Shown here piece after piece: positions 3,594 through 8,969 of a stretch of DNA of 29,723 nucleotides. Position 1 is the stretch's first letter, and each line of letters opens with the position of its first letter. Location of the stretch: IMG/VR virus record IMGVR_UViG_3300043117_000068, positions 1 to 29,723 of that record. One strand, written 5' to 3'. The position numbers and the translations under genes were made by a program. The notes under the pieces were generated by a model, which did not search any database, was not told where the DNA came from, and saw only the letters and a list, made by a program, of their open reading frames with translations. Source of the stretch: a virus. Its lineage: Duplodnaviria > Caudoviricetes.

Positions 3594-3715
3594 TAGGGGG
3601 TATCCAAAGGAGTAAGGTAAATCTAACACTTAAGGTTGGATGTGGTAAGCGAAAGCTCACAGGGTTTTGTTAGACCTAATAGATCCGTTGCATGATTTGA
3701 ATTCATGCCCCCCTA
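3594..3715 (+). ncRNA. tRNA-like RNA with anticodon loop replaced by a ~54-nt structured insert
   Basis: Acceptor TAGGGGG/CCCCCTA, D-arm-like TATCCAAAGGAGTAAGGTA, stem ATCTA (3621-3625)/TAGAT (3680-3684), T-arm CATGA-TTTGAAT-TCATG. Confidence 0.6.
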
Positions 3716-3720
3716 TTTAC

Positions 3721-3757
3721 ACCCTTTTAACTGGTTTCTAACTAGTTATTAAAGGGT
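3721..3757 (+). terminator. Long hairpin immediately 3' of tRNA-like element 1
   Basis: ACCCTTT/AAAGGGT plus TAACTGGTT/AACTAGTTA. Confidence 0.55.
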
Positions 3758-7216: not shown

Positions 7217-7389
7217 AAAAAGAGCTGGCTTGTGAATTATCAAAATATTATAAAGTACCAATAAGTTGGATATATGAAGATACTAAGTATTGGGAAAACA
7301 CTTACGGTTTTACGTTTGTCAGTTTGAAGCTAGTACTTAAAGAGCTTGTTAAGGACTTTATAAATATATTTAATAAAAACAAAGAATGA
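7213..7389 (+). CDS. Hypothetical protein (58 aa, not in ORF track)
   Basis: GTG start overlaps the upstream TGA and its TGA overlaps the downstream ATG; MKKELACELSKYYKVP... Confidence 0.65.
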   Translation: MKKELACELSKYYKVPISWIYEDTKYWENTYGFTFVSLKLVLKELVKDFINIFNKNKE

Positions 7390-7754
7390 AGTGTCCGTAT
7401 TGTGGGAAAAAGGCAGAATGGGTAGAAAATAAAGAGATATATGGCAAAAACTATGGTAAATCATATATGGCGTATTTTTGCAGGGACTGTGATGCCTACG
7501 TAGGGTGTCACAATAACAGTGTAATACCGAAGGGTACATTGGCAAATAAAGAACTGAGAGAGTTAAGAATAAAGTGTCATGAAATAATAGATCCTATTTG
7601 GAGGTATCAAGGTATAAAAAGAAAGGTTTTATATAAGGCTTTGAGTAGATGGTGGGGAGGCGAGTTTCATATAGGATGGTTAAGGGAGGATGATTGTAAA
7701 TATTTTATTAAGAATTTTGATCTCAAAAGCTTAGAATTGCAAAAAGGTCGTTAA
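7386..7754 (+). CDS. DUF3268-family zinc-finger protein
   Basis: CPYCG...C..CDAYVGCH...GTLANKELR...H..IDPIW...HIG. Confidence 0.85.
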   Translation: MKCPYCGKKAEWVENKEIYGKNYGKSYMAYFCRDCDAYVGCHNNSVIPKGTLANKELRELRIKCHEIIDPIWRYQGIKRKVLYKALSRWWGGEFHIGWLREDDCKYFIKNFDLKSLELQKGR

Positions 7755-7765
7755 TAACAGAATAT

Positions 7766-7883
7766 GGGGAGGTGGCAGAGTAATTGCACCTTACTATACA
7801 GGGTTGTGATGTGATATGACGAAGCTACTGTATAGAGTAACGCCTTATCATTAAGCTGGTAGGTTAAAATCCTACCCTCCCCA
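7766..7883 (+). tRNA. Interrupted class II tRNA-like gene; tRNA-Leu(UAG) if insert 7796-7832 is removed
   Basis: Acceptor GGGGAGG/CCTCCCC plus discriminator A; TG-GCA-GAGTAAT-TGC-A D arm; CCTTA/TAACG stem (one mismatch); variable arm CTTA-TCAT-TAAG; T arm GTAGG-TTAAAAT-CCTAC; no encoded CCA. Confidence 0.65.
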
Positions 7884-7948
7884 GTTATAGGTAGTACCGT
7901 TAGCTTGGAGCTCACAAGGTATTCTGAGCTAAACGTAGTGCTTATAAT
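7884..7948 (+). other. Long imperfect hairpin starting directly after the discriminator base
   Basis: GTTATAGG/CTTATAAT outer stem; TAGCTTGGAG/TTCTGAGCTA inner stem. Confidence 0.55.
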
Positions 7949-7971
7949 ATAATTTTTAAATAAATAATAAT

Positions 7972-8259
7972 ATGGAGAACTGGAAAGTAAGACTGGCAGA
8001 TATGCTAGTAGGAAGCCGACATAACTTTACATTAAGAGAGGAGTTAGAAGACTTCATAGAACAACTTCTAGAAGAGAAGGAAAAGGAGGCAAGAGAAGAG
8101 GGAAGGAATGAAGTGTTAAAAGACAGGGTGTGTAAAAAGTGTGGACACGGGGAAATGCGACACTACTGGAACGGGGCAGGTAATAGTGAGTATTCTGGAT
8201 TTAGTCATTGCAAAGTAGATGGTTGCGATTGTGTATATGACGAAAGCAATTTTATCTAA
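7972..8259 (+). CDS. Hypothetical protein with C-terminal Cys/His Zn-binding motif
   Basis: LEDFIEQLL helix; CKKCGH...H...C...C.C. Confidence 0.7.
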   Translation: MENWKVRLADMLVGSRHNFTLREELEDFIEQLLEEKEKEAREEGRNEVLKDRVCKKCGHGEMRHYWNGAGNSEYSGFSHCKVDGCDCVYDESNFI

Positions 8260-8279
8260 ATTAAAGGACAATAAGTAAT

Positions 8280-8639
8280 ATGGAGAAGAAAGGAAATGAC
8301 GGAAAAGGAGACAACCCATCAAGGGATTTATGGCAAACGGAACAGGAGTTTTGGAATAAACTAAACAAACAATACTATTTTGGATTTGATTGTTGTGCTA
8401 GTAGAGATAACTCTAAAACAAGAGAGTTCTCAGATGATTTTCAATCTATTAAAAAGGTATATGCCACTGCGTGGATGAATCCACCCTTTTCTAAAGCAAG
8501 AGATATGTTTGAACATTTCTTTAAGGTGGTTAGTAAGGGGGTTGCAATATATAGGTTTGATAATGCAGAAACAAGGATTTGGCAGGAGGTTATATTTCCT
8601 AATGCTAGTTGGATATTTATACCAATAAGTAACAAGTAG
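8280..8639 (+). pseudogene. Phage DNA N6-adenine methyltransferase, C-terminally truncated
   Basis: DLWQT, FDCCAS and WMNPPFS motifs; ends at FIPISNK without the usual R-x-x-F...FPS tail. Confidence 0.7.
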
Positions 8640-8698: not shown

Positions 8699-8881
8699 AT
8701 GGAAAACAGTTCAAACTTTACTTTTTTGAGGGATTTGAAAAATCCTGATGATTTTACAGAACTTGTAGAGCAAGTGAAGAAATCAGGAGAAAAAGAGTTA
8801 GATGAGTATTCTGTGAGGGTAGCATTAGACTGGTTTATCTCTTGGTTGATGGAACATCTTAACGAATTCAAAAAGAGATAA
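8699..8881 (+). CDS. Hypothetical protein (60 aa from ATG 8699)
   Basis: ORF with AT-rich leader. Confidence 0.6.
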   Translation: MENSSNFTFLRDLKNPDDFTELVEQVKKSGEKELDEYSVRVALDWFISWLMEHLNEFKKR

Positions 8882-8882
8882 T

Positions 8883-8969
8883 TGAGTATTGACTGGTGGT
8901 TAAATCCCACCAGATTAGTATTTAATATTAGTTACTTAGATTGATAATCTAATAACATGCCAATACTCA
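8883..8969 (+). ncRNA. Four-way-junction (cloverleaf) structure overlapping the start of the next ORF
   Basis: TGAGTATTG/CAATACTCA closing stem enclosing three hairpins. Confidence 0.45.

What the first reader, a model, noticed from the sequence alone, without database searches (positions are those of the whole stretch)
7766..7883. Class II tRNA-Leu scaffold with a 37-nt hairpin inserted in the anticodon loop
Seen: a perfect 7-bp acceptor stem with discriminator A, a 3-bp D stem, an anticodon stem CCTTA/TAACG (one mismatch), a 4-bp variable arm and a 5-bp T arm with a 7-nt loop. Removing 7796-7832 gives the loop CT-TAG-AG and an 81-nt tRNA-Leu(UAG); other registers such as AAG or ATA are possible. 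The insert extends the arm into a rod (CTATACAG/CTGTATAG). Known: 37 nt is far too short for a group I intron, the junction lacks an archaeal bulge-helix-bulge, and bacterial LeuRS reads A73 and tertiary shape rather than the anticodon. Inference: this is either a new class of short protein-spliced phage tRNA intron, or a chargeable anticodon-less tRNA mimic acting as a decoy for anticodon nucleases, synthetases or EF-Tu.
Basis: partly seen in the sequence, partly recalled or inferred. Interest (0 to 1): 0.85.

Follow-up and report, generated by a model that had tools for sequence, protein, structure and literature searches.

The report
Anticodon-masked tyrosine tRNA look-alike in phage
A small virus of bacteria carries a tRNA-shaped gene, likely descended from a tyrosine tRNA, whose codon-reading loop is predicted to be locked inside a long hairpin, so it probably is not a spliced leucine tRNA but one more of the little-studied phage RNAs that look like tRNAs without reading codons.

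Summary
The 118-nt cloverleaf at 7766-7883 is real (0 of 30 shuffles), in a 29.6-kb siphovirus. The body is tyrosine-type: its 3' 24-mer matched tRNA-Tyr(GUA) at 39 of 42 GTDB loci and Leu at none, and the variable-arm geometry is Tyr's. A Tyr-like loop lies on the 3' strand of an 8-bp rod. The D loop lacks G18-G19, the T loop has A56, no CCA is encoded. After scrambling the arm, some deletion still gives a passing ARAGORN tRNA in 97 of 200 trials, so 'spliceable' means nothing. No RtcB, EndA or Ro60 was found in the genome. The layout matches phage T5 RNA1, an annotated stable tRNA-like RNA of unknown role. A related contig keeps the T stem through four compensatory changes. No full-length homolog or RNA data were found, so decay is not excluded. 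This scan noted such RNAs on other DNA before. Side finding: an unannotated family with a 6+6-bp acceptor/T branch, present in SPP1 and phi3T; this phage has a second element of that layout.

The parts
7766..7883 (+). tRNA-like gene, 118 nt, no encoded CCA
7766..7772 (+). acceptor stem 5' strand, same as in bacterial tRNA-Tyr(GUA) genes that share the 3' 24-mer
7775..7787 (+). D arm: 3-bp stem; loop 2-3 nt shorter than in relatives, no G18-G19 (a GT that could be G18-U19 is present)
7789..7842 (+).
7794..7835 (+). rod: perfect 8-bp helix 7794-7801/7828-7835 with a weaker, G-U-rich apical part
7828..7834 (+). Tyr-like anticodon-loop heptamer (C-U-GUA-U-A) on the 3' strand of the rod; likely relic, chance about 0.05 in a shuffled arm
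7844..7855 (+). 4-bp variable arm with two unpaired bases before position 48 (Tyr-type geometry)
7859..7875 (+). T arm, 5 bp (6 with G48-C66), loop with A56 instead of C56
7876..7883 (+). acceptor 3' strand and discriminator A73
7884..7948 (+). long hairpin directly behind the discriminator (z = -4.62); shared with a related contig that has another T arm upstream
3595..3715 (+). second tRNA-like element of this genome, 121 nt, 6-bp acceptor plus 6-bp T stem, hairpin in the D loop, no anticodon loop, no CCA
3721..3757 (+). hairpin behind the second element (z = -3.59), same layout as 7884-7948
7386..7754 (+). upstream ORF, DUF3268 zinc-finger protein, same strand, 11 nt before the element

Best explanation
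This is a tRNA-shaped gene, likely derived from a phage tRNA-Tyr, that is predicted to make an unspliced, non-decoding RNA: host RNase P and 3'-trimming enzymes would cut it out of the phage's early transcript by its intact acceptor and T stems, and it would then most likely act as a tRNA decoy. Shown: the cloverleaf, its Tyr-type body, the lack of an encoded CCA, and that no defined excision is implied by the sequence. Predicted: the rod that buries the Tyr-like loop, so that no codon can be read. Inferred: origin by an insertion whose 5' strand is complementary to the old anticodon loop; processing by host enzymes that measure the 12-bp acceptor-T stack; membership of the broad class typified by T5 RNA1. 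Untested: expression, CCA addition, charging, and the job. Of the 0.6, about half goes to a decoy that occupies host proteins binding the tRNA top half (defence toxins, nucleases), and half to a mere processing and stability mark in the transcript.
For: Tyr-type body: 39 of 42 GTDB loci with the 3' 24-mer are tRNA-Tyr(GUA), none Leu; two unpaired bases before 48 in 28 of 31 Tyr, 2 of 12 Leu, 0 of 19 Ser genes in my loci. All helices but the anticodon stem are perfect. T5 RNA1, annotated 'tRNA-like stable RNA with unknown functions', has the same order of parts: class II D arm, anticodon stem enclosing a long hairpin, variable arm, T arm, no CCA. Nine look-alikes with the same D and T motifs have free-form interiors, mixed discriminators and 0 of 9 CCA. 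One 179-nt contig of run X6 has the same downstream hairpin behind a T arm that differs by four double changes in register, also ending in A without CCA. That T-arm motif retrieves a family with a covarying 12-bp branch and no anticodon arm. A56 goes with U19 in 12 of 15 phage tRNAs against G19 with C56 in 143 of 156, so the odd T loop is a lineage trait, not damage. The genome holds a second element of this kind.
Against: No full-length homolog was found: the only full copies are identical ones of the same phage, so conservation of the rod could not be tested. The D loop is shorter than in every relative aligned, which could break the elbow that RNase P reads. The X6 evidence is one contig at depth 3.1 of which 30 upstream letters were visible. 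The family-B model scores the element only 18.7 bits (E 0.008), like generic tRNA-likes (22-24) and far below members (46-79). The nine look-alikes were found with the element's own motifs and picked by eye. No capsid relative (best 41% identity, flanks often too short) showed such an element in 40 non-identical loci.
Confidence: 0.6

Rival explanations
1. A decaying tRNA-Tyr pseudogene, disabled by a hairpin insertion (for example an inverted duplication of its own anticodon loop) and now losing D-loop bases.
For: No full-length homolog; shortened D loop, C.C mismatch, no CCA; a nearby methyltransferase ORF (8280-8639) covers only positions 6-73 of a 169-position Pfam model and related contigs run on where it stops.
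Against: Acceptor, T, D, variable and rod helices are all unbroken; a relative keeps the T stem through four double changes; a second element with the same layout lies in the same genome; whole families of such RNAs covary.
Confidence: 0.27
2. A short protein-spliced intron, as proposed for the 'enigmatic' introns of Lak phages, removed by host enzymes to give a working tRNA.
For: Some deletions give a passing ARAGORN tRNA (best 106.6, reached by 5 of 200 scrambled arms); tRNA genes with inserts that relatives lack are reported for Lak phages (PMC6784885, passages); other phage tRNAs with 35-60-nt anticodon inserts are in my loci.
Against: 97 of 200 scrambled arms also pass, 52 of 200 reach the Leu score; no unique junction; the best product has an A34 anticodon; the GUA reading scores only 94.6-95.3; the one 3-4-3 arrangement at the rod has lone closing pairs and would leave a 10-nt loop; no RtcB or EndA family match in the genome; the host is bacterial by the GH25 endolysin; the exons lack G18-G19.
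Confidence: 0.09
3. A DNA-level feature such as an attachment-site relic or recombination hairpin, not an RNA.
For: The last 25 bases match a bacterial tRNA-Tyr 3' end at 24 of 25, as attP cores do.
Against: The 5' half is present and pairs with the 3' half, which att relics lack; no integrase among 46 ORFs scanned; the T loop differs from host tRNAs at 56.
Confidence: 0.04

Closest known systems
Phage T5 RNA1 (AY543070 30501-30644, 'tRNA-like stable RNA with unknown functions'; record annotation and sequence seen; no paper found)
   Same: Class II-type D arm, anticodon stem enclosing a long hairpin, variable arm, T arm, no encoded CCA, no usable anticodon loop.
   Different: RNA1 has a Leu-type D arm with G18-G19 and C56 and sits in a large tRNA cluster of a 122-kb phage; this one is Tyr-type, has a truncated D loop and A56, and stands alone in a 29.6-kb phage. 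No sequence likeness outside the shared tRNA motifs.
T4 species 1 RNA (rnaC) and species 2 RNA (rnaD) (passages of PMC9697503 and PMC3014915)
   Same: Phage RNA from the tRNA region, rnaC with a T arm and long internal hairpins; expressed, function unknown.
   Different: No recognisable tRNA D arm in my fold of rnaC; expression is shown there, not here.
'Enigmatic' tRNA introns of Lak megaphages (Devoto et al. 2019, PMC6784885, passages read)
   Same: Insert in a phage tRNA gene with no known splicing route.
   Different: There the same tRNA occurs with and without the insert, which fixes the junction, and inserts are conserved; here neither holds, and splicing was not shown there either in the passages I saw.
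Bacterial and phage tRNA-Tyr(GUA), especially phage tRNAs with U19-A56
   Same: Acceptor, T stem, A73, variable-arm geometry, T loop with A56.
   Different: Those have a 7-nt anticodon loop and full D loop; 14 of the 15 A56 genes listed encode CCA.
YrlA Y RNAs (Chen et al. 2014, PMC4201824, passages; Rfam RF02553)
   Same: Non-decoding RNA that mimics the tRNA elbow.
   Different: YrlA is permuted, with a looped acceptor stem, and lies beside Ro60; here the order is that of a tRNA, Rfam gives no match and no TROVE protein was found.
allo-tRNAs with 8/4 and 9/3 branches (Mukai et al. 2017, PMC5389517, passages)
   Same: 12-bp acceptor-T branch kept while the split shifts; relevant to the 6/6 family met here.
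   Different: Those keep an anticodon arm; the term '6-bp' does not occur in that paper's main text (supplement not seen).

Membership tests
Bacterial tRNA-Leu (class II) | Leu-type acceptor and T arm | tested here: not met
   0 of 42 GTDB loci with the 3' 24-mer are Leu; 39 are Tyr
Bacterial tRNA-Leu (class II) | variable-arm geometry (mostly one unpaired base before 48) | tested here: not met
   window has two; two is seen in 28 of 31 Tyr and 2 of 12 Leu
Bacterial tRNA-Leu (class II) | discriminator A73 | tested here: met
   7883 = A; shared with Tyr
Canonical tRNA of any kind | G18-G19 with C56 (or a compensated 19-56 pair) in a full D loop | tested here: inconclusive
   no GG; a GT with A56 could be the U19-A56 variant but the loop is 2-3 nt short
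Canonical tRNA of any kind | 5-bp anticodon stem with 7-nt loop | tested here: not met
   54-nt arm; ARAGORN and Rfam find nothing at default
Group I intron in tRNA | catalytic core of 200 nt or more (size recalled) | tested here: not met
   insert about 35-37 nt, single rod; no Rfam match
Archaeal-type BHB tRNA intron | bulge-helix-bulge at the junction giving a 7-nt loop | tested here: not met
Archaeal-type BHB tRNA intron | splicing endonuclease and RtcB available | tested here: inconclusive
   absent from the phage record; host unknown
Lak-type enigmatic tRNA intron | same tRNA gene found without the insert, fixing the junction | tested here: inconclusive
   no insert-less twin in five D-arm or T-arm pattern scans; one truncated relative, L058
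T5 RNA1-like tRNA-like RNAs (no formal definition or Rfam model) | tRNA top half with paired acceptor, D and T arms | tested here: met
T5 RNA1-like tRNA-like RNAs (no formal definition or Rfam model) | no 7-nt anticodon loop, extra hairpin, no encoded CCA | tested here: met
T5 RNA1-like tRNA-like RNAs (no formal definition or Rfam model) | accumulates as a discrete stable RNA | not testable with these tools
   no RNA holder listed
6/6 family seen here (T loop UGCAAAU) | score within the family's range under a model built without the window | tested here: not met
   18.7 bits against 46-79 for members
YrlA Y RNA | Ro60/TROVE gene nearby and RF02553 match | tested here: not met

The most novel reading that the evidence does not exclude
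Phages, including very small ones, carry a widespread class of anticodon-free tRNA mimics that keep only the 12-bp acceptor-T stack and elbow. This one hides an old tyrosine anticodon inside its own antisense strand, and a sister family uses an undescribed 6+6-bp cloverleaf that sits unannotated in the model phages SPP1 and phi3T. They are processed like tRNAs and serve as decoys against host defences that attack tRNA.
Probability: 0.25. Interest if true: 0.8.

Novelty: new variant of a known kind. Interest (0 to 1): 0.47.

Why it matters
T4 and T5 have long been annotated with stable tRNA-like RNAs whose job is unknown. Finding two such genes in a 29.6-kb phage with no ordinary tRNA suggests they are kept for their own sake and not as by-products of tRNA clusters. 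The element itself cannot be tested without its host, but it led to a covarying 6/6 family present in Bacillus phages SPP1 and phi3T, where expression, processing and deletion phenotype can be tested directly. It also warns that a passing tRNA score after in-silico excision is weak evidence for a phage tRNA intron: about half of scrambled arms pass.

Tried and rejected
tRNA-Leu identity: rejected. In-silico splicing as evidence: rejected by the shuffle control. BHB intron, group I intron, YrlA: rejected. HDV-like theta ribozyme for the downstream hairpin: considered from recall, dropped because it folds as one simple hairpin and Rfam gave nothing. Homolog hunts that gave only identical copies or nothing: terminase, DUF3268 neighbours, 0 of 6 non-identical loci with a similar element behind the gene, downstream-hairpin pattern, capsid alignment, blastn against GenBank phages, metagenome pattern (one hit, a tRNA-Cys). 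Expression: no RNA holder listed; this says nothing either way. Host: five Atribacterota genomes were tried because their tRNA-Tyr shares the 3' end; 1 of 5 matched, only at that tRNA, so the host stays unknown. T4-type RNA ligase search rang in no control and is uninformative. Two unknown ORFs gave no usable family; NCBIfam gave nothing above cut-off for 29 ORFs. A promoter-like site at 7708-7737 is at chance level (26 found, 22.9 expected). A model from the nine closest look-alikes was not built because they were selected with the element's own motifs. Literature: ten searches listed no paper describing this class, the 6/6 form or U19-A56 in phage tRNAs; I saw listings only, except passages of five papers; subscription papers and supplements were not seen.

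Full report
Setting. The window is the whole record G000: an HK97-type siphovirus with terminase, portal, protease, capsid, tail and a GH25 endolysin, all genes on one strand. It has a 127-nt terminal repeat, and IMG/VR classes it as having direct terminal repeats, though CheckV estimates 35% completeness, so absence of a gene is likely but not certain. Public runs that hold it are labelled oil field metagenome; none is RNA. ARAGORN finds no tRNA in it and Rfam nothing to E = 1.

Observation. The cloverleaf is there and is not chance: one hit in the window, 0 of 30 shuffles. Acceptor, D, variable and T helices and the 8-bp rod are unbroken; rod pairs have probabilities 0.86-0.99.

Identity. 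An exact search of GTDB genomes with the element's T arm and acceptor 3' strand gave 42 loci: 39 ARAGORN tRNA-Tyr(GUA), one Tyr-like undetermined, one tRNA with an insert, one no call, no Leu; the Tyr genes also share the 5' acceptor strand. Two unpaired bases lie between the variable stem and position 48, as in 28 of 31 Tyr, 2 of 12 Leu and 0 of 19 Ser genes in my loci (many of the Tyr genes come). A Tyr-like loop heptamer lies at 7828-7834 on the rod's 3' strand; such a motif arises in about 5% of shuffled arms, so it is suggestive only. Among ARAGORN calls in viral loci, C56 went with G19 in 143 of 156 genes and A56 with U19 in 12 of 15, mostly Cys and Tyr; the closest top half is a tRNA-Cys of this lineage (37 of 40 positions, L113; found with the element's own motif). 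Inference: the element descends from a phage tRNA-Tyr of the A56 lineage.

Intron test. With the 54-nt arm scrambled, some deletion passed in 97 of 200 trials, reached 102 in 52 and 106.6 in 5. The only 3-4-3 arrangement at the rod has lone closing pairs and would leave a 10-nt loop. RtcB and tRNA splicing endonuclease models found nothing in the record while ringing in 10 and 4 of 14 controls. Lak phage introns are defined by relatives lacking the insert (PMC6784885, passages); no such twin was found here.

Relatives. Full copies were found only as identical sequence in a second record of the same phage. A pattern of the D and T motifs gave 47 viral loci. I picked by eye eight distinct elements, plus one neighbour found by Rfam, with the same D and T motifs and free-form interiors; none of the nine encodes CCA and the discriminators are A, T or C. 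The remaining loci were ordinary tRNAs, 3' fragments, duplicates or class I-like tRNAs with anticodon inserts. One 179-nt contig of run X6 (depth 3.1) carries 7880-7956 with four differences behind a different T arm; in register its 6-bp stem differs from the window's at four pairs, each on both sides, and it too ends in A with no CCA (30 upstream letters visible).

A sister family. That T-arm motif gave 35 viral loci, 30 distinct rows, 18 parsing as a 6-bp acceptor plus 6-bp T stem. Anchored by the D-arm motif alone, 12 of 17 had a perfect 6-bp acceptor, none a 7-bp one, all 17 a 48-66 pair and none CCA; 84 of 102 cells paired against a shuffle mean of 56.6 and maximum of 75. In an alignment of 16 rows that I chose, covariation was 0.61 against 0.17 (the T stem was fixed by the search). 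Rfam matched only neighbouring tRNAs in 20 of these loci. A model built from them, without the window, scored unannotated copies in SPP1, phi3T, Enterococcus phage EFP01 and Lactiplantibacillus phage H1-Guo at 53-63 bits (4 of 4 fetched). It ranks the window's element first in the window but at only 18.7 bits, near T5 RNA1 (22.1), so the element is not a core member. A detector for the 6/6 layout, written after I had seen the site, finds 3595-3715 in the window and nothing in 100 shuffles; the model does not find that site. Both window elements are followed at once by a strong hairpin, which 1 of 23 family members shows.

Mechanism. What such RNAs keep is the 12-bp acceptor-T stack and the D-T elbow; what varies is the interior, the discriminator and the acceptor sequence. 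From established knowledge (recalled, and stated for EF-Tu in PMC5389517), that stack is what RNase P, the CCA-adding enzyme and EF-Tu measure, while synthetases need fixed identity bases, and TyrRS reads the anticodon. The likeliest working: the RNA is cut from the early transcript as a tRNA would be, is not spliced, does not decode, and offers a tRNA top half to host proteins. Whether this serves as a decoy or only as a processing mark is open. Decay remains a real rival because the D loop is truncated and no full homolog exists in what I could search.

Comparison. The architecture is that of T5 RNA1; T4 rnaC and rnaD are expressed RNAs of unknown role. The lead to T5 RNA1 came from earlier notes of this scan, which list 21 findings of tRNA-shaped non-decoding RNAs on other DNA; I checked the T5 record myself. 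Ten literature searches listed no description of the class (see Tried and rejected); that library lacks most subscription papers.

Verdict. Real element, wrong isotype, intron unsupported; a new variant of a known but unexplained kind. Interest 0.47, lifted by the second element and by the testable 6/6 family.

Noticed in passing
L198-L232; L236:700-833 (phi3T), L237:698-805 (SPP1), L238:696-823, L239:700-804: Unannotated family of phage tRNA-like RNAs with a 6-bp acceptor plus 6-bp T stem, Leu-type D arm, T loop UGCAAAU, free-form interior of 89-201 nt total length, no CCA, no Rfam match; strong acceptor covariation. Present in model Bacillus phages, so directly testable; deserves its own study.
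   Followed up: partly
window 3595-3757: Second tRNA-like element (6/6 layout, hairpin in D loop) followed by a hairpin, mirroring 7766-7948. No homolog found in GenBank phages.
   Followed up: partly
L065, L070, L074, L075, L077, L087, L089, L091, L100-L102: Phage tRNAs (mostly Cys and Tyr) replace the near-universal G19-C56 elbow pair by U19-A56 (12 of 15 A56 genes).
   Followed up: partly
L001:935-1602, L010:1058-1607, L007:1493-1611: Tandem tRNA bodies that each carry a related anticodon-loop insert: a short hairpin followed by a CAGCAA or CTGCAA motif.
   Followed up: no
L017:1493-1626 and L144: Homologous tRNAs with a roughly 60-nt structured anticodon insert showing apparent compensatory changes between the two copies.
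   Followed up: no
window 8881-8926: Very stable hairpin (z = -5.47) capped by a T-arm-like stem and loop with A56.
   Followed up: no
window 8252-8291: Gene-start motif shared by many other contigs in the same runs, placed before different ORFs; one contig joins 7956 to 8270, lacking the 95-aa ORF. Possibly a cassette-exchange site.
   Followed up: no
window 8280-8639: Adenine methyltransferase ORF looks truncated (119 aa; related contigs continue beyond about 8625).
   Followed up: no
window, 46 ORF starts: Only 8 of 46 ORFs have a Shine-Dalgarno-like motif; leaders are AT-rich. Host unknown.
   Followed up: no
L083:721-964: Weak Rfam match to archaeal RNase P RNA (26.3 bits, E 0.00095, below gathering) next to a tRNA-like RNA in a 373-kb phage contig.
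   Followed up: no
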